IMG/VR virus record: IMGVR_UViG_3300028874_000010
Coordinates: 48,369 to 112,368 of that record
Reading direction: 5' to 3' (one strand)
Length of the DNA: 64,000 bases
Source: a virus
In this document: in pieces, positions 3,721-53,348 of the stretch
How the letters are laid out: each line of letters starts with the position of its first letter
Numbering within the stretch: position 1 is the first letter of the stretch
Notes under the pieces: generated by a model
What the model was told of the DNA's origin: nothing
Databases searched by the model: none
What the model saw: the letters and a program-made list of their open reading frames with translations, nothing else
Made by a program: the position numbers and the translations under genes

Positions 3721-5244
3721 TTAGTTATTTTTGGTCCCGTTGGCAATGTATTCAGTATCCATTTCACCAATGATTGTACTGGGTGACTCGATGACTACAT
3801 CAAATTCCCAGAGATTAGCAAGATGACCGATAGTCTCTTTAACCGAGTCATCATCAAGTGGCCTATTCAAATACGGAGTATGAACGATGGTTAGAGTTCG
3901 GTCACCAAGAATATCTACATTATCAACTTGAAGATCCGGAACCCAGTTTGCTCGGTTATAACTTTCAGAAAGTGAATTCCGGACTTTGATATAACCATCA
4001 TCATTATGGATTGCAGAAATCTCGACAAAATTCTCTTCTTGAATATCCGTAATAGAAAAGAATTTAAAATCACGAATTACTTTTGGAGACAAAAACTGTG
4101 CTATGAATGAATCATCTTTATAATTCTCCATTGCATCTTTAACAACAGGAAGCCATGGTGTCCCAGCAAACTTTGGAAACCAATGACGGTCTTCTTCTGT
4201 AGGGTTTTCACAGATTCGTTTGATATCCATGAAGATAGCAAACCCGAGTGCATACGGATTAATTCCGCTGAACCAGCGCTTATCAAATTCTGGTTGATAC
4301 ACCACATTGGTATGTGATGCTAAAAATTCTATATATGACCCAGATGAAACAAGACCTTTTTCATATAGCCGTGTCATAATGAAGTAATGCGTGAATGTTG
4401 CAAATCCTTCATTTAAGACTTTGGTTGATCCTTGTGGATAAAAGTACTGAGAGACTTTACGAACAATGCGGATGATTTCACGTTTCCAAGATGGTAAATC
4501 TGGTGCATATTTTTCAATGAAGTACAAGATATTATCTTCCCGATCTGCTGGGAATTTTTCATCTTTGGCGTTTTCTAACGTGTTATTTTTCGGGACTGTT
4601 TTATCCCAGATAGGATTGAAATCAATACGGGCTTGTTCAAGCCGTTCCATCGCCCGCTTTTCTTCATCACTTGCACTGATAGATGGAGGGCGCTTATATC
4701 GATCAATCCCATAATTCATTAATGCATGGCAACTATCTAAAAAGGCTTCAACTTCAGCAACCCCATATTTTTCTTCACACTTTGCAATATAGTTCTTGGC
4801 AAACAACAAATAATCAATAATTGCTGAAGCATCAGTAAATTGTTTGAACATGAAATTGTTCTTGAACACTGCTGAATGTCCAGCCGATGCGTGAGCCATG
4901 ACCAAACATTGCATAGTCATGTTGTTTTCTTCCATGAGATATGCGATACATGGATCTGAATTAATCACGATTTCATACGCTAGACCCATTTGGCCATGTT
5001 GGTATGATTTATAATTCTTCAGGAATTCTTTTCCAAACGACCAATGCTTATACATGATTGGAAGACCAGTTGATGCATAGGCATCAATCATTTGCTCGGC
5101 TGAAATGACTTCCATTTGAGGCCGATAATAATCAAGCTGAAGTTCTTCCTTAGCGATCTTTTCGATTTCAATCCAAGTCTTTTCAAGAAGATCAAAAGAC
5201 CAATCTTGACCTGGCCCAAACAGCGGTTTATTTTTCTTAGCCAT
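3721..5244 (-). CDS. ycgB: SpoVR/YcgB family protein
   Basis: HWSFGK, GLAYEIVINSDPCIAYLMEEN, TKVLNEGFATFTHY, INPYALGF. Confidence 0.9.
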   Translation of the reverse strand: MAKKNKPLFGPGQDWSFDLLEKTWIEIEKIAKEELQLDYYRPQMEVISAEQMIDAYASTGLPIMYKHWSFGKEFLKNYKSYQHGQMGLAYEIVINSDPCIAYLMEENNMTMQCLVMAHASAGHSAVFKNNFMFKQFTDASAIIDYLLFAKNYIAKCEEKYGVAEVEAFLDSCHALMNYGIDRYKRPPSISASDEEKRAMERLEQARIDFNPIWDKTVPKNNTLENAKDEKFPADREDNILYFIEKYAPDLPSWKREIIRIVRKVSQYFYPQGSTKVLNEGFATFTHYFIMTRLYEKGLVSSGSYIEFLASHTNVVYQPEFDKRWFSGINPYALGFAIFMDIKRICENPTEEDRHWFPKFAGTPWLPVVKDAMENYKDDSFIAQFLSPKVIRDFKFFSITDIQEENFVEISAIHNDDGYIKVRNSLSESYNRANWVPDLQVDNVDILGDRTLTIVHTPYLNRPLDDDSVKETIGHLANLWEFDVVIESPSTIIGEMDTEYIANGTKNN

Positions 5245-5443
5245 TATTCTTTCCAATTAACGTGCAAATTTTATTGCACTATCTACTTCATCACCAAAGG
5301 CCACTTTATCACAATCCGGATAAAACCACGCGATACACCCAGTAGGTAGTTCGATTTTGAATTCATCTATTTTATCAGCTATGAATTCATAACGAGCTAG
5401 AATTATTTCTAACTCTTCCTGAGTATATTTTGTGCTAAGCCTG

Positions 5444-6751
5444 TCATTTAGTTTTCTTTTCAAACAATTTTTTGAACACTGGATAGATCTCAGCATCTTC
5501 ATAGACATTAGCCATTTGAAAATTCTCAAAATCTTTCTTTACATTTTCATAGGTCGTCCAAATATCACTTTGATATCCTGGTGTTGTTCCAACTTGGATG
5601 TACCCAAAATATTGGACATAAGGCATAATATCATCGCAGAGCAATTCATAGCACGTGCCATTGTCGGTGTCCCAATTATCACCGTCCGAACATTGGCAAA
5701 TATACACGTTTGTTGAATTATCAGAATAATCATCCTTGATAATCTTAGATGCCAAATCCAATGCAGACGAAACCATTGTCCCGCCACTATCTCGAGTATT
5801 AAAGAATGTATCTTCATCAACTTCAAAAGCTTCAGTGGTATGGTAAATAAACCTAAGTGAAACCTTTTCATACTTACGAACTAAAAACATATACAACAAA
5901 GCAAAGAATTTTCTAGACAATGTCTTTTCATGAGGGCCCATAGATCCAGAATTGTCCATAATGCAGATCATCACAGCATTTATTGCTGGGTGTTCAACTG
6001 CAACAGTTGAATGATACCTAAGATCCAATGGATCAAGAAATGGAACATTTTCCATCTTCACTTTATACCCAGTAATCTTCTTCTGAAGTTCTACTTTACG
6101 ATTCTGTAATTCTTGATCTTCTTCGGCAGATCTAACAACAGCTTGAATCAATATAGCTTCAATTTGATTCAATTCATCTTGCGCGGCCTTCAATCGTTTC
6201 TTATAAGGGGCACGCTGTGAGATCCTACGTGAATGTGAATTTCGGAGTGATTTACTCCGATCCAATTTTGCTGGCGTCCCATTTGTAGTGTGTCCAGCAT
6301 TATGATGTTTAATTTCAATAACTTCTTTTAGACCTTCCTTAACAAGATCTGGAAGCTCCAAATCTTCAAAGAAATATTCCAGAAATTCATCACGTGTAAT
6401 TTCTACTACAAAGTCATCTTCACCAGACCCATCAGGCGAACCCTTCTTGCCAAAGCCACCTCCAGTCTTTGGCGGCTTTCTGAATTTATCACCGGCATTA
6501 AAATCTTGGTTACCAGGTCTAACGGCTTCATATGTCCCGCCTTCACCATGCCTAAAATTTGGTTCGCTGATACTTTTTTGTGGGATATGGATTACTCCAC
6601 CATCAGAATCAATATCTTCAATTTTACGAGAATTGATAATATCCGGCAAAGATTTTTTAACAGATTCACGAATTCGTTTTAGAAACTTTTGACGGTTATC
6701 TAATGACTTTCCCTTACCGTTTGGGCGCCGATCTACAATAGAGAAGCTCAT
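5444..6751 (-). CDS. yeaH: YeaH/YhbH (DUF444) vWA-domain protein
   Basis: IVDRR..GKS..NRQKF, FFEDLELP, MDNSGSM MIDAS, SGGTMVSSAL, SDGDNW. Confidence 0.9.
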   Translation of the reverse strand: MSFSIVDRRPNGKGKSLDNRQKFLKRIRESVKKSLPDIINSRKIEDIDSDGGVIHIPQKSISEPNFRHGEGGTYEAVRPGNQDFNAGDKFRKPPKTGGGFGKKGSPDGSGEDDFVVEITRDEFLEYFFEDLELPDLVKEGLKEVIEIKHHNAGHTTNGTPAKLDRSKSLRNSHSRRISQRAPYKKRLKAAQDELNQIEAILIQAVVRSAEEDQELQNRKVELQKKITGYKVKMENVPFLDPLDLRYHSTVAVEHPAINAVMICIMDNSGSMGPHEKTLSRKFFALLYMFLVRKYEKVSLRFIYHTTEAFEVDEDTFFNTRDSGGTMVSSALDLASKIIKDDYSDNSTNVYICQCSDGDNWDTDNGTCYELLCDDIMPYVQYFGYIQVGTTPGYQSDIWTTYENVKKDFENFQMANVYEDAEIYPVFKKLFEKKTK

Positions 6752-6752
6752 A

Positions 6753-6977
6753 TTATTCTTTTCCTGAAGTAGGAGTTATTTTAATTCTACAAGCAAATAA
6801 CTGATTGGTGACGTTAGCTGATGGCCCATTATTTTCCAAGAGCACAGCTTGTTCACATGTCTGAGCATGAGCTATTGCATCATTTGCTTTGACATTGTAA
6901 CTCCAAATGAAGAAACCAAGCCCAAGAATAACACTTGCAACCGCTATCCAAAATGCGCACCAAACATTATCTCTCAT
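6753..6977 (-). CDS. small membrane protein
   Basis: N-terminal hydrophobic helix. Confidence 0.55.
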   Translation of the reverse strand: MRDNVWCAFWIAVASVILGLGFFIWSYNVKANDAIAHAQTCEQAVLLENNGPSANVTNQLFACRIKITPTSGKE

Positions 6978-7085
6978 AATACTTTCTCATTATCAAATTA
7001 TATGCGATCTCTAGAAATTAATCTAGAGGCCTCTTCTCTCTACTTATATTAAATTTTAGGAAAATCTTTATAACATATATCTAAG

Positions 7086-7115
7086 AAGGTTACTCCGTAA
7101 TATGGAGTAACCTTC
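7086..7115. terminator. hairpin / probable terminator after yeaG
   Basis: GAAGGTTACTCC...GGAGTAACCTTC inverted repeat. Confidence 0.55.
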
Positions 7116-7135
7116 CTCAAATTCTATTGCGAGAA

Positions 7136-9076
7136 TTACTGATTTTTACGGATACGTAGCCACCATTCAACAAGTAGACGGGTTTGGCGTTGCGTATAAC
7201 CCTTATCGGCCATCCGCTTGACAAATGATTCATGAGCTTCTTGATCCTTCTTTGATCCTTTAGAAGTGAAGCTGATCACTGGTAGAATTTCTTCTGTCCC
7301 AGCGAACATTTTCTTTTCAATAACTTGGCGCATCTTTTCAAAGTCGTTCCAGGCAGGCATATTGCCTTTATGGCCGGCTTTATGGCGAAGCACAAAGTTA
7401 ACAACTTCATTCCGGAAATCTTTCGGGTTCACAATACCTGCAGGCTTTTCAACTTTTTCTAGCTCAGCATTCAATGTCGAGCGATCAAATTGTTCGCCAG
7501 TATCAGCATCACGGAAATCTTCATCGCGGATCCAGAAATCTGCATATTGGACATATCGATCAAAAATGGTTTGGCCATAATCGCTGTATGAATCCATAAA
7601 GGCAATCCGGATTTCCTTTTCAACGAACTCAGCATACTTGTCGCCAAGTTGGTGCTTAATCAAATTGATCAGGTGTTCTTCACGATCTGATGGAAATTGT
7701 TCCTTGACGATTTCATTTTCCAAGACATACATCAAGTGAACCGGGTTAGCACCGATTTCTTCAGTATCAAAGTTAAATACCTTTGATAGGATCTTGAATG
7801 CAAATCGGGTCGAGATTCCGTCCATGCCTTCATTGACACCAGCAACATCCTTATATTCTTGGAGCGGCTTAGCACGTGGATCAACATCTTTGATATTTTC
7901 GCCATCATAGACGCGCATCTTGGAATATAGATTCGAATTGGCTGGTTCAACCAACCGGGACATGACTGCAAACTTGGCAAGCATTTCAAGAGTTTCTGGT
8001 GCAAATGGAGACTTGGCCAATTTACTTTTCGCCAACATCTTTTTATAGATGCCGACTTCTTCACTAGCACGTAGGCAATATGGAATCTTGACAATGTTAA
8101 CACGATCCAAGAACGCTTCATTGTTCTTGTTGTTACGGAAGGTCTTCCATTCACTTTCATTGGAGTGAGCAAGAACAATGCCATCGAAAGGAATACTGGA
8201 AATAGAATCTGTTCCGTTGTAATTCTTTTCTTGAGTTGCTGTCAAGAGTGGATGAAGCATCTTGATTGGGGCTTTGAACATTTCGACAAAGTCCAAGATC
8301 CCTTGATTAGCATTACATAGACCACCGGAGAAGCTATATGAATACGGGTTATCTGCAGCGTATTCTTCTAACATCCGGATATCAGTTTTACCAACCAGTG
8401 TCGTAATGTCTTGGTTGTTTTCATCACCAGGTTCTACTTTAGCAATCGCAATATTATTCAGAATGGAAGGATATTGCTTGATTACAGTCAATGACGAATG
8501 ATCACCTTTCAGGTCTTCAAGCTTTTGCGCCAGCCAAGGAGACATTTTGACTCGAAATGCACTTGCCGGAATATCATATTCTTCTTCAAGGGCAGCACTG
8601 TGAAGATCGACATCAAAGATGGAAAGAGGATTATCATGAATTGGAGAACCTTTGATGAAATAGATTGGTTCCTTTTCCATCAGTTCTTTCAACTTTTCGG
8701 CGATCGACGATTTACCACCACCGACGGGTCCGAGTAGATAAAGAATTTGTTTACTTTCTTCAAGGCCTTGAGCACTATGCCGGAAGTAAGAAACAATTGA
8801 TTCGATTGCATCTTCCATGCCAAAGAAATCTTTGAAGGCTGGATAGATTTTGATGATGCGATTTGAAAAAATGCGGCTGAGGCGAGCATCAGTTTTTGTA
8901 TCAACGAATTCCGGTTCGCCGATTGCCTTGAGCATACGCTCGGCTGGCGAAGCATAAACCGAAGGATCACTTTTGCAAAGATTCAAATATTCTTGAATCG
9001 ACATTTCTTCCTGGGTGTTACGCTTAGCGTAATCATTGGAAAATCTCGCCAGTACGCCCGAGTGTGCTTTGGACAT
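7136..9076 (-). CDS. yeaG: PrkA/YeaG AAA+ serine protein kinase
   Basis: LLGPVGGGKSS Walker A, EPGDENNQDI, FVEMFKAPIK, NNEAFLDR. Confidence 0.93.
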   Translation of the reverse strand: MSKAHSGVLARFSNDYAKRNTQEEMSIQEYLNLCKSDPSVYASPAERMLKAIGEPEFVDTKTDARLSRIFSNRIIKIYPAFKDFFGMEDAIESIVSYFRHSAQGLEESKQILYLLGPVGGGKSSIAEKLKELMEKEPIYFIKGSPIHDNPLSIFDVDLHSAALEEEYDIPASAFRVKMSPWLAQKLEDLKGDHSSLTVIKQYPSILNNIAIAKVEPGDENNQDITTLVGKTDIRMLEEYAADNPYSYSFSGGLCNANQGILDFVEMFKAPIKMLHPLLTATQEKNYNGTDSISSIPFDGIVLAHSNESEWKTFRNNKNNEAFLDRVNIVKIPYCLRASEEVGIYKKMLAKSKLAKSPFAPETLEMLAKFAVMSRLVEPANSNLYSKMRVYDGENIKDVDPRAKPLQEYKDVAGVNEGMDGISTRFAFKILSKVFNFDTEEIGANPVHLMYVLENEIVKEQFPSDREEHLINLIKHQLGDKYAEFVEKEIRIAFMDSYSDYGQTIFDRYVQYADFWIRDEDFRDADTGEQFDRSTLNAELEKVEKPAGIVNPKDFRNEVVNFVLRHKAGHKGNMPAWNDFEKMRQVIEKKMFAGTEEILPVISFTSKGSKKDQEAHESFVKRMADKGYTQRQTRLLVEWWLRIRKNQ

Positions 9077-9223
9077 TAACAACTCCTATTATTTTCAAAG
9101 TTTTGATTGAGAGAAACTACTGGTGAATCTACTACTATTATTTTGTGGTTCAGCATAAATACGATTTTTACACACAAGTTTTTTATTGTAAATCAAATTA
9201 GACTTGTTATTATGCTTTGCAGC

Positions 9224-11025: not shown

Positions 11026-11060
11026 AAAAAAAAGGAGACTCATTGCGAGTCTCCTTTTTT
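11026..11060. terminator. bidirectional terminator between convergent HNH and cca
   Basis: A-tract GGAGACT-N7-AGTCTCC T-tract. Confidence 0.85.
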
Positions 11061-12159
11061 ATAGTGCATTAATTCTGGCATTAAAGATTAAATCTTTAAT
11101 TTTTGTTTTATCTTCTGTTGATAACGCAATCTCGGCAACATCGACATTCAAAATCTTATCAATATCACTATAAATTAATTCATGCGGCATCAGCCCAACT
11201 CCTTTAACATGTTCGCCGATATATCGACAAGCAGTTAGAACAACTTTGAATCTTTCAGGTCTCCTGAATAAATCAACTCTATTAAACAATTGGACCCGTT
11301 CTCTCTTACTTAATATTTGATATTTAGCAAGAGCCCCGCATTCGTTATTTACCAATGTAGAGACTTGTTCACAATCAACTGAGATAGTCCAACGTTTGTA
11401 ATCTTCTTTATTTTTAAATCCATTTGCTATGATAGCAAATCGAACTTCAAGCGGAGCATTATTCTGAGCTGCTTCATTTAATGAGTGTAGCCCACTGTCA
11501 CGAAGCCACTGACCTGTTGTACGAGTTCCGCCCCCAAACCATTCATTTAAATGATGATTAGCGCCAACATACGACAGTATTACAAACATCGCTGAAGGTC
11601 TTGCTTCCATCAGACCTTTCTTAAATTCCATCCAAACTCGTTCCGGGGTTAATGACTTGAATTCGCCAGAATCTACTATTTGACGCATAAGTTCTATAGT
11701 ATCTTCGTGGATAGTGAACTCGGTATATCTTGCAGCAAATCTGGCGATTCTGAGAACCCGAACCGGATCTTCAGCAAAGGCTTCTGATGTGTGTCGAAGA
11801 ATTTTATTCTTTAAATCTTCTTGGCCACCATACGGGTCAATGACGTTATTGTTTTCATCCATCGCCATCGAGTTGATTGTTAAGTCGCGCCGAAAAAGAT
11901 CTTGCGCTAATGTAACAGTCGGATCAAAGTCAACTTTAAACCCGTTGTACCCAGGAGAAACCTTACGTTCATTTCTGGCTAATGCATATTCTTCACCAGT
12001 GATTGGATGGAGGAAGACCGGAAAGTCTGCACCAACTTGCTGGAAATTAAGTTCCAACATGGCTTCAGTTGTGGCGCCAGTTACCACATAATCTCGATCT
12101 CTGGATTCTATTCCGAGCAGCCGATCCCTAACTGCGCCACCAACTAAATATGTTTTCAT
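11059..12159 (-). CDS. cca: tRNA nucleotidyltransferase (CCA-adding enzyme)
   Basis: [50 protein letters not shown]. Confidence 0.93.
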
Positions 12160-20734: not shown

Positions 20735-20758
20735 ATTATTCTATTTTTAAATATCGGG

Positions 20759-20843
20759 CGGAAACAGTAGGATTCGAACCCACGGAGCTGTTACACTCTC
20801 CAGATTTCAAGTCTGGCGCATTAGACCACTCTGCCATGCTTCC
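20759..20843 (-). tRNA. tRNA-Ser(TGA); CCA not fully encoded
   Basis: CCAGA-CTTGAAA-TCTGG, long variable arm, ends G-CC-C. Confidence 0.9.
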
Positions 20844-20853
20844 ATATTTCTAT

Positions 20854-26337: not shown

Positions 26338-27633
26338 TCAAACCATGTAGATTAATGTAGCTTTCTTACCACGCTTTGCCTTTTCGATTTCTTGGATAGC
26401 TTCAGAAATAGAATCAACTTCTTTTACAAATACGCCATCTTTCTTTCGAAGCAAACGAATTTTACCAGGAATAGTAATAGGACTGAGTACTTGTGCAATT
26501 GCTGGGCTATGTGCTTGAACAACTGGGGCTACTGCAGCCGCTTGAGCAGCAACTACAGCTTTTGGTTGATATGAAGGACCTTCAGTAAAGGCCTTACCAA
26601 CATGTGGCCAATACATCACACAGGAACCCGTCACGAGCTTCCGATTGACCGAGGTTGATTGGATATAAATCTCCCAATTGCCATGGGCGCCTGGAACGAC
26701 TCGCGCATTCCCAACAGTAGGAAGACCAATCATCTGGCGAGCAGCAGGGCCATAATAAACGGTTCCATCTTTTGAATCACGAATGATAATCAGTTTGTTT
26801 TCTTGGACCTTACTTTCCGTTTTATTCAACAGATAGAAAGCCGAACCTTTAAGCATAGGCTTGTTCAAACGCTTTTCAACGAATGGACGAATTTCTGCGC
26901 CATTTTCATTGTGAAGAACCGGCCACATTGTGATTTCAGCCGAAATATCTTTTAGCTGAGCTTTTGCTTCGGCCACAGTAACATTAGCCGCGCTTGCATA
27001 GAAGGTCGAAGTGCTTTTTACGCCGCGCGACCGTTCTGTGTAATAATCATTGAACGCTGCTGTTGTGGCTTGTGTAGAGACTGTTACACCATGAGCGGTT
27101 TGGTCCCATTCTTGAATATTACCAGACGGGATTCCGAAACGTGTTAGGTTTCGTGTTTCGCCACGAGGAACTCGAAATACGAAAGTCCAACGATCGGTAT
27201 TTTGAAGTTCACGAATTTTGTTGCTGAGAGAAACACCAGTCCATTTCTTAGACGAATTTTCGCCGCCATCTGTTGTTACAATGATTAAGAAAGAAACATC
27301 TGGATCATTCGCATCCGGAACCGATTGAAGCAAATCGATTAGTTCACCAACAGAGTCGAATAGAGGAGTTGAACCGCCAGTTGTTGCATATTCATTTACA
27401 GCAATTGGCTTGATGATATGGATATTCGAATTAACGATTTGGCGCTTGACACCAGTCGATCCACTAGGAAGACGAAGACCGCATTGAATAACACTGACGA
27501 TAGTGTCGAGATTATTCATTCTTGCTGCTTGTTGAATTGCTGAGATATTTGTGTTGAAGTCTTTAGCCGCGTAACGACCGATACCACTCATTGAACCAGA
27601 ATGGTCATTGGAAAAGCCGATATAATTTTTCAT
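26338..27633 (-). CDS. von Willebrand factor A domain protein
   Basis: DHSGSM MIDAS, TPLFDS, TTDGGENSS. Confidence 0.8.
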   Translation of the reverse strand: MKNYIGFSNDHSGSMSGIGRYAAKDFNTNISAIQQAARMNNLDTIVSVIQCGLRLPSGSTGVKRQIVNSNIHIIKPIAVNEYATTGGSTPLFDSVGELIDLLQSVPDANDPDVSFLIIVTTDGGENSSKKWTGVSLSNKIRELQNTDRWTFVFRVPRGETRNLTRFGIPSGNIQEWDQTAHGVTVSTQATTAAFNDYYTERSRGVKSTSTFYASAANVTVAEAKAQLKDISAEITMWPVLHNENGAEIRPFVEKRLNKPMLKGSAFYLLNKTESKVQENKLIIIRDSKDGTVYYGPAARQMIGLPTVGNARVVPGAHGNWEIYIQSTSVNRKLVTGSCVMYWPHVGKAFTEGPSYQPKAVVAAQAAAVAPVVQAHSPAIAQVLSPITIPGKIRLLRKKDGVFVKEVDSISEAIQEIEKAKRGKKATLIYMV

Positions 27634-28218
27634 AAAATTGATGCTCCAAAATATTATTTTTTTAAAGGTACTACAAATTATTTTCAAAGTCGTCGCTTCG
27701 TAATCGCGACATACTTATTTATAGTACAAAAAAGTCACCGCGATTGCAGTGCCTATCATAATGCAAATGACAAATTTTTAAACTGGATTATTTCCGACCT
27801 AACGCTTGATTAATCATTTGTTGGCTACGTGATATTTCTGGCTGCCGAAAATAATCCAACATTGCGGTCATGATTTCCTGAGGACGAACCATATAATGGA
27901 ACGCACGAATCTCATCGCCTTTCTCGTCGACCAATGAAAGGAATTCTTTATTCCGTCCATTGTGATGCACATAGACCTTGAGCATCTAGCCGCCTGTGAC
28001 ATCACTGACATCGCGTGAAATACCTGTGAATCTGTATCTACATCAGTGTCCCACTCGCCGAATGGCGTGACTTCATTGTTGGGGATCTTGATAGGGCTAG
28101 TGCCTAGAAATAACTGTGCTTGATCGAACTTGAGCTTTGGCATATTGAGTCTCAAAAATTACGATGGATGCGTTTGACCGCAATATCAATCTATCACGCC
28201 CATCCATCATGGTACACC

Positions 28219-32046: not shown

Positions 32047-32124
32047 TGGTACCCAATCTCGGATTCGAACCGAGAACATTAAGCTTTTGAAGCTTACGCG
32101 TCTACCAGATTGCGCCAATTGGGC
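32047..32124 (-). tRNA. tRNA-Leu(CAA), short variable loop
   Basis: TAAGC-TTCAAAA-GCTTA, Leu-type D arm, A73, CCA. Confidence 0.88.
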
Positions 32125-33847: not shown

Positions 33848-33924
33848 TGGTCCCCATCCTCAGCTTCGAACTGAGAACATTATCCTTTTAAGGGATACGC
33901 GTCTTCCAATTGCGCCAGATGGGG
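33848..33924 (-). tRNA. tRNA-Leu(TAA), short variable loop
   Basis: TATCC-CTTAAAA-GGATA, A73, CCA. Confidence 0.88.
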
Positions 33925-33925
33925 A

Positions 33926-34017
33926 TGGAGGAAAAGATGGGATTCGAACCCATGGACCCACTTTCGCGAGCCGTTAGTTTTCAAGACTAATGCAATAACC
34001 CGCTCTGCCACTCTTCC
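33926..34017 (-). tRNA. tRNA-Ser(TGA)
   Basis: TTAGT-CTTGAAA-ACTAA, long variable arm, CCA. Confidence 0.92.
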
Positions 34018-34142
34018 ATTTGTTATAATAAATACCGTCTATGACGGCACCTCACTTCTATTCACTGCAGCTATCACTTATGAAGGCCTTGGTGAAATGT
34101 ATAAAGAGTTTTTGAAGTAATATCAATACTTCATAAAACATT

Positions 34143-34228
34143 TGGTGCACGTTATAGGATTCGAACCTATTCAGGCACAAGGCCCACGCGTTTACAGCGC
34201 GCTTATCTCTCCAGAGGATTGAACGTAC
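34143..34228 (-). tRNA. tRNA-Tyr(GTA), atypical D arm
   Basis: GCGCG-CTGTAAA-CGCGT, variable arm, ACCA. Confidence 0.82.
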
Positions 34229-34238
34229 ATTATAAAAC

Positions 34239-34265
34239 TGGTGGACCACCTAGGTAACGATCCTT
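34239..34265 (-). pseudogene. tRNA 3' fragment (T arm + acceptor strand + CCA only)
   Basis: AGGATCGTTACCTAGGTGGTCCACCA with no 5' half. Confidence 0.55.
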
Positions 34266-34276
34266 CCATTTATTAC

Positions 34277-34366
34277 TGGTGAATGTCGATAGGAATTGAA
34301 CCTTCTTTGGCCTATTAAGGCATCAGCTTATCGGCTGACCGCGCTACCATTACGCACTACACATTC
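34277..34366 (-). tRNA. atypical tRNA (GAT in a 6-nt loop, long variable arm); possibly a pseudogene
   Basis: TCAGC-CGATAA-GCTGA; GCCT-TAAT-AGGC extra arm; ACCA. Confidence 0.55.
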
Positions 34367-34395
34367 ATTACTTCTTATCTACAACTTAGCAATTT

Positions 34396-34470
34396 TGGAG
34401 ACGCTACGGAGAATTGAACTCGCGATTTATTCCTTGAAAGGGAATTTTCCTACCTTTAGAAGATAGCGTC
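34396..34470 (-). tRNA. tRNA-Glu(TTC)
   Basis: ATTCC-CTTTCAA-GGAAT, CCA. Confidence 0.85.
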
Positions 34471-34482
34471 ATAATAAAACTT

Positions 34483-34556
34483 TGGCAGGCTTGCGGGGAA
34501 TCAAACCCCAGTCAGCGGTTTTGGAGACCGTTATGTTATCACTACACTACAAACCT
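34483..34556 (-). tRNA. tRNA-Trp(CCA)
   Basis: CTCCAAA loop, AGG 5' end, G73-CCA; D and T loops slightly degenerate. Confidence 0.82.
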
Positions 34557-34568
34557 ATTAAAACATTT

Positions 34569-34659
34569 TGGTGGGTTGGAAAGGAATTGAACCTATACAG
34601 ACTTATTGACATCGCGTCGCGTTTACAGCGCGGGGAGCTCACCAGTGCTCAGCCAACCC
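34569..34659 (-). tRNA. tRNA-Tyr(GTA)
   Basis: CGCG-CTGTAAA-CGCG, long variable region, ACCA. Confidence 0.82.
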
Positions 34660-34722
34660 ATTTACTAAGTGCATTCAGATAAAAACTCTGGCATGTATTC
34701 CTATTCCATCACATGTGCATTC

Positions 34723-34920
34723 GTAATTAATTTAAAGTTGAAGTCTACAAAATTTGTATGAGGATTCGAACCCATGTCTCCGACTTTCAAGATCGGCGCC
34801 TTACCACTTGGCCAACAAATTCAGAAATTTCAAATCTTGGCGCGTCAACACCAAGATCACTTATTCAGGTAGACTCAACTGTCGAAACAGTTGACGCTAT
34901 TTCAACTTTAAATTAACTAC
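34723..34920 (-). ncRNA. about 200-nt structured RNA containing an embedded tRNA-like domain (TGA anticodon)
   Basis: 20-bp terminal stem 34723-34742/34901-34920, internal stems, cloverleaf at 34750-34822 without CCA. Confidence 0.65.
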
Positions 34921-34923
34921 TCG

Positions 34924-35000
34924 TGGTGGCCATCCTCGGACTCGAACCGAGAACATTTACGCTCTAAACGTAACGCGTCTTCCAATTGCGCCAGACGGCC
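34924..35000 (-). tRNA. tRNA-Leu(TAG), short variable loop
   Basis: TTACG-TTTAGAG-CGTAA, A73, CCA. Confidence 0.88.
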
Positions 35001-35025
35001 AAAATATTACATTTACCGGATTCAG

Positions 35026-35060
35026 AAAACAAAAAAGGCGAATCGTTTAGGATTCGCCTT
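35026..35060 (-). terminator. intrinsic terminator (attenuator) upstream of the tRNA array
   Basis: AAGGCGAATC-CTAAAC-GATTCGCCTT-TTTTGTTTT. Confidence 0.85.
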
Positions 35061-35086
35061 GATGTTAGGATCTGAAGAGTATGTAT

Positions 35087-35185
35087 TTACATACTGTGTC
35101 CAGCTCTTACATTCAAGGCGTGTGCCCACTCATACGATAAACTCTCGTATGAATAAGACAACAGGCTGAGTGATGAACTGAACAT
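35087..35185 (-). CDS. putative attenuator leader peptide MFSSSLSLLSYSYESLSYEWAHALNVRAGHSM
   Basis: AAGGA RBS; 18 consecutive Ser/Leu/Tyr/Glu/Trp codons; its 3' part pairs with the terminator 5' arm. Confidence 0.75.
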   Translation of the reverse strand: MFSSSLSLLSYSYESLSYEWAHALNVRAGHSM

Positions 35186-35220: not shown

Positions 35221-35228
35221 TATTTATA
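35221..35228 (-). promoter_or_regulatory. T4-type late promoter TATAAATA upstream of the leader
   Basis: Exact consensus; also at 14930, 27716, 47395, 51903, 53197, 54391, 55271. Confidence 0.65.
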
Positions 35229-40780: not shown

Positions 40781-41221
40781 TCACTTTTGGTGAAGTGTAT
40801 CCCAAAACTTTTCCATGATTTTCATTGAGGCTTCATCTGGGTGAACCCACTCTGGTACCGCTGGATGATTTACTTCCCACAATCGATATGTGTTTCTAAT
40901 CGTTCTTCCAACAGTCGAATGCAATTTAATCAAATCTTCTTTTTTAATACTAGTCCAAGCCTCTATACCTTTATCATCCATATTATTTTTTAAATCGGCC
41001 ACAATTTCGTCGACCGTCATAAAGGCTTTCTCTTCAATAACTTCTTCGTATGGTTCTAAATCTTCATCACTAAGCTTCTTATCAGCCACATCATAAATAT
41101 CACTGACAAATTGTGAAATTTCAATATAGTCACCACTCCAGCCATATCTCTTAGCTACTTCAAGAAGTGTTGTTAAGAATTCCGGAGTTGCTAAAGTTTT
41201 AATTATTGCTGTATTATTCAT
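40781..41221 (-). CDS. hypothetical protein
   Basis: ORF, ATGA overlap. Confidence 0.55.
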   Translation of the reverse strand: MNNTAIIKTLATPEFLTTLLEVAKRYGWSGDYIEISQFVSDIYDVADKKLSDEDLEPYEEVIEEKAFMTVDEIVADLKNNMDDKGIEAWTSIKKEDLIKLHSTVGRTIRNTYRLWEVNHPAVPEWVHPDEASMKIMEKFWDTLHQK

Positions 41222-41898
41222 CCTTCCCTCAATGTGTTTTTGTCAGTTTTAAAAAACCAATGGCCATCTTCAGTCTTAACATGATTTGCTCTAACACATT
41301 TCGCCGCATTCTTTTTCATATCATTGTAATGAAAAGATTGAGCATTAGAGATAACATACCCTTCATCTTTTTCTGGATCTAATCCAAACCCAAGATGCTT
41401 GACTGGAACTATACTCAAAGCAAGATGCATCAAGTTCAAATCTTTGAATGATCCTCTTTTTAAAACAGGGACCATACTCAAATCAAGACATTCACAAAAT
41501 TCTTGCATATCATCTAGTGACAATCTAGTATTTGTTTCATCCCAGATGGCAAACACATAAAAGAAAGACTCTAGATCATGATAAGGAATTGAGTGAAGAG
41601 CTAACATATTCTCGCCGCAGATTCTCCAACCATCGGGAATATCTCTATAAAGTAATGCAGCTAGTTGTTTGATATGATGGCGTGACCAATGATCTTTTGA
41701 ATCTAATGATCTTGCGTGGGAATATCCTCTGCCAATAGTGGTATTCTCACCATCCATTTTTAAGGATGCATAACAGTCTTCCATCGGAATGAAATATTCT
41801 ATCAATTCTTGATTAGTCAGAATTTTGTCATCTGATGTAGAAGATTGAGTCCATGGCAAATGGAAAGTCGTTGGGAATTTATATTCTGGTGTATTCAT
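41218..41898 (-). CDS. ATP-dependent RNA ligase family protein
   Basis: K.P.T.HLPW, motif I KMDGEN, ICGEN, FYVF, EGYV, K.VR. Confidence 0.8.
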   Translation of the reverse strand: MNTPEYKFPTTFHLPWTQSSTSDDKILTNQELIEYFIPMEDCYASLKMDGENTTIGRGYSHARSLDSKDHWSRHHIKQLAALLYRDIPDGWRICGENMLALHSIPYHDLESFFYVFAIWDETNTRLSLDDMQEFCECLDLSMVPVLKRGSFKDLNLMHLALSIVPVKHLGFGLDPEKDEGYVISNAQSFHYNDMKKNAAKCVRANHVKTEDGHWFFKTDKNTLREG

Positions 41899-49799: not shown

Positions 49800-49916
49800 T
49801 GGTGGGTGGTTAGGAAATCGAATCCATTTGCAGTTTATGTAGTATCAGGAAGAACCGACGCCTGTTTGATAGCTTCCCTGCATCACCTATACTATGGCCA
49901 CCTTCGGCAACCACCC
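49800..49916 (-). ncRNA. tRNA-like RNA with acceptor stem, T arm and ACCA but no canonical anticodon arm
   Basis: GGGTGGTT/AACCACCC-ACCA; GGA-TTCGATT-TCC; expanded centre. Confidence 0.6.
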
Positions 49917-53270: not shown

Positions 53271-53348
53271 TGGTAGTCTGTATCGGATTCGAACCGATGA
53301 CCTACTGTTTTGAAGACAGATGCTCTAACCAGACTAAGCTAACAGACC
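53271..53348 (-). tRNA. tRNA with TCA anticodon (opal/UGA suppressor)
   Basis: CTGT-CTTCAAA-ACAG; standard 7/5 class I body, A73, CCA. Confidence 0.82.

What the first reader, a model, noticed from the sequence alone, without database searches (positions are those of the whole stretch)
34723..34920. About 200-nt structured RNA with a complete tRNA cloverleaf locked inside it
Seen: it begins 3 nt after the CCA of tRNA-Leu(TAG). A 20-bp terminal helix (34901-34920 with 34723-34742; one G-U on the minus strand) closes hairpin TCAACTG-TTTCGA-CAGTTGA and stem GTCTAC/GTAGAC. That stem encloses hairpin TCTTGGTG/CGCCAAGA and a short-arm cloverleaf (34750-34822) with a Ser-type TGA anticodon and no CCA. 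With both ends buried it could not be charged unless processed. Inference: a decoy for anticodon nucleases, a Y-RNA-like tRNA mimic, or a new ncRNA class. It is among the first products released by the attenuator.
Basis: partly seen in the sequence, partly recalled or inferred. Interest (0 to 1): 0.78.

Follow-up and report, generated by a model that had tools for sequence, protein, structure and literature searches.

The report
Irregular phage tRNA inside long stem
In the tRNA gene array of a large uncultured peat phage, one odd tRNA-shaped gene (serine anticodon, wrong body, no CCA end) is wrapped in a 20-base-pair stem with two extra hairpins; the fold is real and unusual, but it occurs only in this phage, so its purpose is open.

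Summary
On the minus strand, 34723-34920 folds into a 20-bp closing helix (P1), an 8-bp UUCG hairpin (P2), a 6-bp helix (P3), a 9-11-bp hairpin (P4) and a complete cloverleaf. The fold scores z = -5.45. P1 beats all 100 shuffled windows, and none of about 330 tRNAs in related phage loci has such a bracket.

The "Ser" label rests on the anticodon alone. The body has a short variable arm, an almost all-A/U acceptor stem, U73, one extra U in the T arm and no CCA. All eight neighbouring tRNAs that ARAGORN drew in full encode CCA.

It is not a YrlA-type Y RNA:
- there is no Rfam hit;
- the cloverleaf is not permuted;
- no Ro60 (TROVE) gene lies in the 112-kb contig or in the 185-kb relative.

It is a singleton. 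The nearest relative keeps the terminator and tRNA-Leu(UAG) but lacks the element, peat samples carry the identical sequence, and pattern scans found no copy. Covariation could therefore not be tested.

My best reading (0.38) is an rRNA-style double-stranded processing stem around an irregular tRNA that RNase P, a 3' cut and the phage's own CCA-adding enzyme could mature. A stable tRNA mimic or decoy (0.30) and a decaying relic (0.20) remain open. This scan noted tRNA-in-handle RNAs beside Ro60-like genes on other phage DNA.

The parts
34901..34920 (-). P1, 5' strand of the 20-bp closing helix; starts 3 nt after the CCA of tRNA-Leu(UAG)
   Evidence: pair probability 0.95-1.0 except the innermost pair (0.69)
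34875..34894 (-). P2 hairpin, 8 bp with a UUCG tetraloop
   Evidence: pair probability 0.8-0.98
34869..34874 (-). P3, 5' strand (GUCUAC)
   Evidence: pair probability 0.65
34833..34858 (-). P4 hairpin, 9-11 bp including G.U pairs that are A.C mismatches on the plus strand
   Evidence: pair probability 0.96-1.0
34822..34832 (-). single-stranded 11-nt leader before the acceptor stem (access for RNase P; inference)
34750..34821 (-). irregular class-I tRNA-like cloverleaf: anticodon UGA, A/U acceptor stem, U73, one extra U in the 3' strand of the T arm, no CCA
34743..34748 (-). P3, 3' strand (GUAGAC), 1 nt after the discriminator
34723..34742 (-). P1, 3' strand of the closing helix
34924..35000 (-). 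context: tRNA-Leu(UAG), short variable arm, encoded CCA, directly upstream
35035..35060 (-). context: terminator-like hairpin with a T run before the array; conserved in the relative G001
11059..12159 (-). context: phage CCA-adding enzyme (PolyA_pol head and RNA-binding domains)
41218..41898 (-). context: phage RNA ligase (PF09414); used to find relatives

Best explanation
The element is a processing module of the polycistronic phage tRNA transcript. Its two ends pair into 20 + 6 bp of almost perfect, A/U-rich double-stranded RNA (P1 stacked on P3). This resembles the long-range stems that flank 16S and 23S rRNA, and it is the kind of substrate that host RNase III cuts.

Proposed steps (all inferred):
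1. A cut in P1 frees the 3' side of tRNA-Leu(UAG), which has only 3 single-stranded bases after its CCA.
2. The same cut separates the module from the downstream tRNAs.
3. The enclosed irregular tRNA(UGA) is cut at its 5' end by RNase P through the 11-nt single-stranded leader.
4. It then needs an endonucleolytic or trimmed 3' end, followed by CCA addition, for which the phage carries its own enzyme.

Whether the released tRNA decodes UCA/UCG codons is doubtful. It lacks serine identity elements and has a bulged T stem.

Shown: the fold, its strand, its statistical excess, its place in the array, the lack of CCA and the presence of a CCA-adding enzyme. Inferred: co-transcription, every cleavage step and any decoding role.
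For: - The fold is real, strand-specific and far beyond chance.
- All G.U pairs of P1 and P4 lie on the strand that encodes the tRNAs, so any selection acts on the RNA, not on a DNA palindrome.
- The element sits 3 nt after one tRNA and 61 nt before the next. No promoter-like or terminator-like site lies between them.
- The nearest late-promoter-like TATAAATA is at 35221-35228, and all ten such motifs of the window are on this strand.
- P1 is uninterrupted over 20 bp and abuts P3 with no unpaired base on its 3' strand.
- The cloverleaf keeps U8, A14, G18G19, A21, U33, G53, UUCGA and C61, and scores 47.9 bits. tRNA-recognising enzymes should therefore see it.
- The phage encodes a CCA-adding enzyme.
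- From memory, not checked here: phage T4 also mixes CCA-encoding and CCA-less tRNA genes in one cluster, and its cluster transcript has an RNase III-dependent step.
Against: - No other tRNA among about 330 in related or comparable phage loci has such a bracket, so this is not a general processing design.
- The nearest relative, with the same terminator and tRNA-Leu(UAG), does without the element.
- Two extra stable hairpins (P2, P4) are not needed for a plain RNase III site.
- A closing helix of the two ends is also typical of stable non-coding RNAs.
- P3 begins 1 nt after the discriminator, which should hinder 3' end processing (inference).
- All eight neighbouring tRNAs that ARAGORN drew in full encode CCA, which sets this one apart.
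- No RNase III or RNase Z-like gene lies in the 112-kb contig, so host enzymes would have to do the work. The host is unknown.
Confidence: 0.38

Rival explanations
1. It is a stable tRNA-mimic RNA that is never aminoacylated. The 20-bp helix protects both ends and P2 and P4 stiffen the scaffold. The exposed tRNA elbow and the Ser(UGA)-type anticodon loop then bind a protein. That protein could be a host tRNA-targeting defence nuclease or toxin (decoy or sponge), or a phage tRNA-binding protein in the way Y RNAs bind Ro60.
For: - The ends are buried and no CCA is encoded, whereas the eight neighbouring tRNAs drawn in full encode it.
- The body cannot be a serine acceptor, yet its 7-nt anticodon loop CUUGAAA is identical to that of both regular phage tRNA-Ser(UGA) genes.
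- The bulged T stem and the A/U acceptor stem argue against work on the ribosome (inference).
- The phage invests in tRNA repair, with an RNA ligase and a CCA-adding enzyme. Phage tRNAs are known counter-measures to tRNA-cutting defences (PMC10264068, PMC11555353; titles and abstracts seen).
- Irregular, probably non-translating tRNAs are on record from forest and peat soil metatranscriptomes (PMC5389517).
- Notes of this scan report whole tRNAs on handles in other phages (unchecked leads).
Against: - No partner protein was found. TROVE/Ro60 is absent from the 112-kb contig and from the 185-kb relative.
- No Rfam YrlA hit appears even at E <= 10.
- A perfect 20-bp helix without bulges is unlike Ro60 handles and should attract RNase III (established knowledge).
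- The single-stranded leader leaves the RNA open to RNase P, which would split it.
- There is no conservation anywhere.
Confidence: 0.3
2. It is a relic with no function of its own: a decaying extra tRNA gene that arrived together with a young inverted duplication or an insertion. The structure is too recent to have eroded.
For: - It is a singleton. It is absent at the syntenic site of the nearest relative and has no other copy in the contig or in IMG/VR.
- The T arm differs from the ATGGG/CCCAT arm of the phage's own Ser tRNAs, and of the closest tRNA body (L073:4080-4157), by one inserted T. This looks like damage.
- Two regular tRNA-Ser(UGA) genes already cover the same codons.
- The peat population is clonal, so nothing shows purifying selection.
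Against: - Four separate helices are all intact.
- Their four G.U pairs all fall on the transcribed strand (about 1 in 16 if random), which fits RNA-level selection.
- All conserved tertiary positions of the tRNA are kept.
- P2 and P4 are not explained by a simple inverted duplication.
Confidence: 0.2
3. It is a miniature inverted-repeat transposable element (MITE-like) that carries a tRNA.
For: It has 20-bp terminal inverted repeats, a length of 198 bp and A/T-rich ends. A 2-bp GA on both flanks could be a target duplication.
Against: - There is no second copy within 4 mismatches in 112 kb.
- The exact arm is absent from 2.9 million IMG/VR contigs.
- A 2-bp flank match is expected once in 16.
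- The one arm mismatch is a G.U on the RNA strand.
Confidence: 0.05

Closest known systems
Long-range RNase III processing stems flanking bacterial 16S and 23S rRNA (and the RNase III-dependent step in the phage T4 tRNA cluster transcript; both from memory)
   Same: The sequences 5' and 3' of a stable RNA pair over about two helical turns of nearly perfect duplex inside a polycistronic transcript of stable RNAs.
   Different: The cargo here is a 72-nt tRNA-like unit plus two extra hairpins. No cleavage has been shown and the stem is not conserved in the nearest relative. I know of no tRNA gene described with its own rRNA-style stem, and four literature searches found none.
YrlA-type Y RNAs of bacteria and phages (Rfam RF02553; Chen et al. 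2014, PMC4201824)
   Same: It is a small RNA whose two ends form a closing stem and which carries a tRNA-like domain. Some members (M. smegmatis YrlA) are cut by RNase P and receive CCA.
   Different: In YrlA the tRNA-like domain is permuted (T arm, closed acceptor hairpin, D arm) and has no anticodon arm, and the gene lies beside a Ro60/Rsr gene. Here the cloverleaf is complete and in normal order, there is no Rfam hit, no Ro60 gene was found, and the site is inside a tRNA array.
CCA-less tRNA genes that need 3' endonuclease or trimming plus the CCA-adding enzyme (B. subtilis RNase Z substrates; T4 tRNA-Pro and tRNA-Ser; from memory)
   Same: A tRNA gene without encoded CCA sits among CCA-encoding neighbours, and a CCA-adding enzyme is available (here phage-encoded).
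   Different: Those tRNAs have regular bodies, known identities and single-stranded trailers. This one has a paired trailer, a bulged T stem and no recognisable identity set.
Irregular tRNAs and allo-tRNAs of soil bacteria and phages (Mukai et al. 2017, PMC5389517)
   Same: They are non-canonical tRNA bodies with anticodons that do not fit their identity. Some are judged non-translating, some have a bulged T stem, and some were found in forest and peat soil data. ARAGORN can draw this one with an 8-bp acceptor stem.
   Different: Allo-tRNAs have a long variable arm, serine identity and 8/4 or 9/3 branches. This one has a 4-nt variable region and 7(8)/5 plus a bulge on the other strand. None of those is described inside a closing helix.
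tRNA-like punctuation and 3'-end modules (MALAT1 mascRNA, mitochondrial tRNA punctuation; from memory)
   Same: A tRNA-shaped unit may serve mainly as a landing site for RNase P and RNase Z that cuts a longer transcript.
   Different: Those are eukaryotic or organellar systems, and none has a clamp helix around the tRNA-like unit.

Membership tests
tRNA (Rfam RF00005) | Cloverleaf with conserved tertiary positions, scoring above the curated cut-off | tested here: met
   47.9 bits against 29. ARAGORN also calls it. One inserted U lies in the 3' strand of the T stem.
Bacterial tRNA-Ser | Long variable arm (class II body), the main SerRS identity element (established knowledge); usually G73 | tested here: not met
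   The variable region has 4 nt and the discriminator is U. The two regular Ser(UGA) genes of the window are 89 and 92 nt with long arms.
YrlA / Y RNA | Match to the Rfam YrlA model | tested here: not met
   No YrlA hit in 34100-35100 at E <= 10.
YrlA / Y RNA | Permuted tRNA-like domain (T arm, acceptor hairpin, D arm) with the closing stem in place of the anticodon arm | tested here: not met
   The cloverleaf is complete and non-permuted with an anticodon arm, and the closing stem extends from the acceptor end. The YrlA architecture was read in PMC4201824.
YrlA / Y RNA | Gene for Ro60/Rsr (TROVE domain) next to the RNA | tested here: not met
   No TROVE match in six frames of the 112-kb contig or of the 185-kb relative G001. 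No TROVE or Ro60-like hit in the 17 ORFs of 359 aa or more that were scanned with Pfam. The 449-aa protein at 26338-27687 has an N-terminal vWA domain only. Caveat: the contig is about 32% of the genome.
RNase III processing stem | About 20 bp or more of uninterrupted double-stranded RNA formed by the flanks of a stable RNA | tested here: met
   20 pairs (19 Watson-Crick plus 1 G.U), abutting 6 more.
RNase III processing stem | Cleavage by RNase III in vivo or in vitro | not testable with these tools
   No run on record as RNA among the listed holders.
MITE-like mobile element | Several copies with the same terminal inverted repeats at different sites | tested here: not met
   No other copy in 112 kb within 4 mismatches, and none in IMG/VR by the exact arm.
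MITE-like mobile element | Target-site duplication | tested here: inconclusive
   Only GA is shared by the two flanks; this is expected by chance once in 16.
allo-tRNA / tRNA-Sec-like (8/4, 9/3, 8/5 branch) | 8-9-bp acceptor stem together with a long variable arm | tested here: not met
   An eighth pair (G.U) is possible, but the variable arm is short. Definitions taken from PMC5389517.

The most novel reading that the evidence does not exclude
It is a new kind of phage small RNA: a caged, never-charged tRNA mimic that shows a Ser(UGA)-type anticodon loop on a nuclease-resistant multi-helix scaffold. It would be made early from the stress-gated tRNA operon as a decoy or sponge for a host tRNA-targeting defence, or as a Ro60-independent cousin of the tRNA-on-a-handle RNAs that this scan noted in other phages.
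Probability: 0.2. Interest if true: 0.75.

Novelty: new variant of a known kind. Interest (0 to 1): 0.45.

Why it matters
If the stem is a processing device, it would be, as far as I know, the first tRNA gene with its own rRNA-style excision stem. It would also show how a jumbo phage orders the maturation of a stress-gated tRNA operon.

If it is a stable mimic, it would add a non-permuted, apparently Ro60-free design to the short list of bacterial and phage tRNA mimics (tmRNA, YrlA). It would also give a concrete candidate for an RNA decoy against tRNA-cutting defences.

Either way it warns annotators that the third 'tRNA-Ser(UGA)' of this phage is not a serine tRNA. The weak point is that it is a single sequence with no relatives and no RNA data.

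Tried and rejected
- **Exact and degenerate pattern scans of IMG/VR:** the tRNA 3' half, a Gln-like D arm plus CUUGAAA loop and the P1 arm all gave 0 hits.
- **Looser class-I/CUUGAAA pattern:** 3 unrelated hits in IMG/VR and 3 in bacterial MAGs. None has the scaffold.
- **BLASTN of 401 nt against GenBank phages:** no match.
- **Relatives through the upstream 226-aa ORF:** none in IMG/VR or JGI metagenomes. Its protein cluster holds only near-identical copies.
- **Relatives through the RNA ligase and a conserved 158-aa protein:** the nearest is G001 / L088 at 56-63% identity. It lacks the element.
- **Inverted repeats around tRNA-Glu in G001 (L084:2864-3267):** they run into a coding region and were dropped.
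- **RNAduplex on tRNA flanks:** useless because neighbouring tRNAs pair with each other. It was replaced by a contiguous-helix count.
- **Sequencing runs:** 23 peat DNA runs hold the stretch or part of it, and no RNA holder is listed. Contigs of four of these runs were laid; the two that reach the element (one over its whole length, one over its upstream 132 nt) show no differences there, so there are no variants to test covariation.
- **aaRS genes:** no class IIa core and no Glu/Gln-type gene in the contig.
- **'Short Ser(tga)' in L039:** it re-reads as tRNA-Gln(UUG).
- **ESM Atlas for two unknown proteins of about 450 aa:** one is a vWA protein and the other gave no usable hit.
- **Not attempted:** a covariance model of the element. 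With one sequence it would only find tRNAs.

Full report
**Where the window comes from.** The window is the right-hand 64 kb of a 112,368-bp IMG/VR virus contig. CheckV rates it about 32% complete, which implies a jumbo phage of roughly 350 kb. Of the 24 sequencing runs listed, 23 hold the stretch or part of it; all are peat metagenomes, and none is on record as RNA.

- Genes run almost entirely on the minus strand.
- All ten TATAAATA motifs of the window lie on that strand.
- The phage carries a CCA-adding enzyme (11059-12159), an RNA ligase (41218-41898), a PrkA / DUF444 / SpoVR trio and radical-SAM enzymes.
- It has at least 16 tRNA-type genes.
- Outside the window it has a permuted tmRNA of the betaproteobacterial type.

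**The observation.** Read on the minus strand, tRNA-Leu(UAG) ends with CCA at 34924. Three bases later the element begins.

| Part | Coordinates | Description |
|---|---|---|
| P1 | 34901-34920 with 34723-34742 | 20 pairs, one G.U |
| P2 | 34875-34894 | 8 bp closed by a UUCG tetraloop |
| P3 | 34869-34874 with 34743-34748 | 6 bp |
| P4 | 34833-34858 | 9-11 bp with up to three G.U |
| leader | 34822-34832 | 11 nt, single-stranded |
| cloverleaf | 34750-34821 | complete tRNA-like fold |

On the 3' strand, one base separates the discriminator from P3, and none separates P3 from P1. T arm, acceptor stem, P3 and P1 can therefore stack into one long rod, with P2 and P4 as side arms.

The evidence that this is more than chance:
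- MFE is -63.4 kcal/mol, z = -5.45, and no shuffle of 200 folds as well.
- The opposite strand reaches only -49.9 kcal/mol, because every G.U becomes an A.C mismatch there.
- The full hand-drawn model, cloverleaf included, costs -58.0 kcal/mol. Nearly all pairs of P1, P2 and P4 have probabilities near 1.
- P1 is the best inverted repeat of the 64-kb window. None of 100 Markov shuffles of the window reaches its 19 Watson-Crick matches.

**What the enclosed tRNA is.** Rfam's tRNA model gives 47.9 bits, which is mid-range for this phage's tRNAs (37.9-69.1). U8, A14, G18G19, A21, U33, G53, the UUCGA T loop and C61 are all present.

The anticodon loop is CU-UGA-AA. It is identical to the loops of the two regular, long-armed tRNA-Ser(UGA) genes at 33926-34017 and 20756-20844.

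The body, however, is not a serine tRNA:
- The variable region has four bases.
- The acceptor stem has six A-U pairs and one G-C pair.
- The discriminator is U.
- The 3' strand of the T stem carries one extra U (CCuCAU). Rfam reads this as a bulge and ARAGORN as an 8-nt T loop.
- The phage's own Ser tRNAs have the clean ATGGG/CCCAT arm, as does the most similar tRNA body I found, L073:4080-4157 in another jumbo phage.

No CCA follows. The eight other tRNAs of this stretch of the array that ARAGORN drew in full all encode CCA; Ser(GCU) ends in TCC at ARAGORN's boundary.

By established knowledge, bacterial SerRS needs the long variable arm, so the 'Ser' label reflects the anticodon only. I could not assign another identity. 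No aaRS gene of the Ser/Thr/Pro/Gly/His core type or the Glu/Gln type lies in the contig.

**Is the design common?** I ran ARAGORN on 85 sources (80 IMG/VR loci found through the RNA ligase, extra loci and the window itself; 1.4 Mb). I then ran it on 83 further loci (0.5 Mb). For each tRNA I asked for the longest ungapped helix, with G.U allowed and one mismatch, between its 120-nt flanks.
- This tRNA scores 21 pairs.
- The best of the other 237 + 94 scores 16, and most score 10-12.

So this is not a usual way to build phage tRNA arrays.

**Is it conserved?** The closest relative I could reach is G001 (IMG/VR, 185 kb; also seen as a 349-kb metagenome contig, L088). It shares 56-63% identity in the RNA ligase and in proteins on both sides of the array, in the same order.
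- G001 has the same terminator-like hairpin followed by tRNA-Leu(UAG). There, 18 bases later, a tRNA-Leu(GAG) follows, and no element is present.
- No part of the element recurs in the 112-kb contig.
- Three IMG/VR pattern scans found no copy, and BLASTN against GenBank phages found nothing.
- The upstream 226-aa ORF has only near-identical copies in public data.
- Of the four peat runs laid, the two that reach the element carry the same sequence over what they cover, without a single difference: one over its whole length, one over its upstream 132 nt.

Absence from a 60%-identity relative is weak evidence either way, because the arrays have been reshuffled.

**Y RNA reading.** YrlA RNAs have a permuted tRNA-like domain without an anticodon arm, carry a conserved motif, and sit beside Ro60/Rsr (PMC4201824). 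Here:
- Rfam gives no YrlA hit at E <= 10.
- The cloverleaf is complete and in normal order.
- A six-frame TROVE search is blank in the contig and in G001, while the control genomes respond.
- The 17 ORFs of 359 aa or more that I scanned with Pfam show no TROVE domain. Three of them had no Pfam hit at all, or none near its cut-off, and one of those three (L172:18346-19488) was not looked at further.
- The 449-aa protein at 26338-27687 looks like a vWA protein with the domain at its N terminus, which is not the Ro60 layout.

Notes of this scan report complete tRNAs mounted on short conserved handles next to diverged Ro60-like genes in other phages. I treated these as leads only. A sequence look-up found no look-alike of my element among them, and the Ro60 test failed here. 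With two thirds of the genome missing, this is not final.

**Mobile-element reading.** The size and the 20-bp terminal repeats fit a MITE. Against it: there is one copy only, no copy in IMG/VR, just a 2-bp flank match, and the arm mismatch is a G.U on the RNA strand.

**Mechanism.** The element lies between two tRNAs with no promoter-like or terminator-like site inside it. The nearest TATAAATA and the terminator-type hairpin lie upstream. I confirmed that the small ORF 35185-35087 encodes a peptide rich in Ser, Leu and Tyr, with three UCA codons and one UCG codon. Co-transcription with the array is therefore the natural assumption.

As the RNA is made, P2, P4 and the cloverleaf can fold first, and P3 and P1 close last. 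A 20-bp uninterrupted A/U-rich duplex stacked on six more pairs is what RNase III recognises (established knowledge). A cut there would free the 3' side of tRNA-Leu(UAG), which otherwise has only three unpaired bases before a very stable helix. It would also detach the module from the downstream tRNAs.

The 11-nt single-stranded leader leaves the tRNA open to RNase P. The 3' end would need an endonuclease or trimming and then CCA addition, for which the phage brings its own enzyme. None of these steps has been shown.

The design also has features that fit a stable, uncharged RNA better:
- the ends are buried;
- two extra hairpins are present;
- the trailer is paired one base after the discriminator;
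- no CCA is encoded among neighbours that encode it;
- a Ser(UGA) loop sits on a body that SerRS should ignore;
- the T-stem bulge lies where EF-Tu binds (inference).

I therefore give the processing reading 0.38, the mimic or decoy reading 0.30, a functionless relic 0.20 and a MITE 0.05. The rest is left open.

**Novelty and verdict.** The fold is real and, in my sample, unique. It matches no Rfam family beyond the tRNA inside it. Four literature searches found no described tRNA gene with its own long closing helix and accessory hairpins.

It combines known parts: a tRNA, a long-range duplex like rRNA processing stems, and the closed-end design of Y RNAs. I class it as a new variant of a known kind. 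With a single sequence, no relatives and no RNA data, the interest is moderate.

Noticed in passing
G000:C1:3808-4242 (outside the window; locus L168:435-870, minus strand): The phage encodes a permuted (two-piece) tmRNA. Rfam tmRNA_permuted scores 108 bits and beta_tmRNA 97 bits, both above their cut-offs. ARAGORN gives the tag ...ANDAYFGETRLAA. This hints at a betaproteobacterial-type host.
   Followed up: partly
window 34281-34366 (-): A class-II tRNA-like gene with a long variable arm whose anticodon loop has 6 or 8 bases (CCGAUAAG). ARAGORN misses it, and Rfam gives only a weak tRNA-Sec hit (22.7 bits).
   Followed up: no
window 34924-35000, 33848-33924, 32047-32124 (-): Three tRNAs with leucine anticodons (UAG, UAA, CAA) have short variable arms, A73 and encoded CCA, unlike normal bacterial tRNA-Leu. 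The relative G001 has short-armed Leu tRNAs too (L084:2079-2252).
   Followed up: partly
window 49800-49916 (-): A tRNA-like RNA with an 8-bp acceptor helix and ACCA end but no regular anticodon arm. Rfam gives no hit at E <= 1.
   Followed up: partly
window 35087-35185 (-), with 35035-35060 and 35221-35228: A 32-codon ORF (MFSSSLSLLSYSYESLSYEW...) rich in Ser, Leu and Tyr lies between a TATAAATA motif and a strong terminator-like hairpin, just before the tRNA array. The hairpin is conserved in G001. It is the subject of another report of this scan.
   Followed up: partly
window 53271-53348 (-): A class-I tRNA with anticodon UCA (reads UGA). ARAGORN labels it SeC, and it scores 68.4 bits on the general tRNA model.
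   Followed up: no
window 3721-9082 (-): A full PrkA / DUF444 (YeaH) / SpoVR gene trio is carried by the phage.
   Followed up: no
window 26338-27687 (-): A 449-aa protein without a Pfam hit. ESM Atlas features (0.93-0.95) and structure rows place a vWA domain at residues 19-237. The family (phrog_26613) is viral.
   Followed up: partly
L169:3598-3672, L170:4992-5065, L171:4750-4894: Three gammaproteobacterial MAG contigs (Rhodanobacteraceae, Luteimonas, Steroidobacteraceae) carry tandem class-I tRNA-like genes with a CUUGAAA (UGA anticodon) loop and no CCA. One lies at the end of a 21-tRNA array.
   Followed up: no
L073:4080-4157: Another jumbo phage has a tRNA with the body most similar to the enclosed one. 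Its anticodon loop is CCUUCAA, that is, C instead of the universal U at position 33.
   Followed up: no
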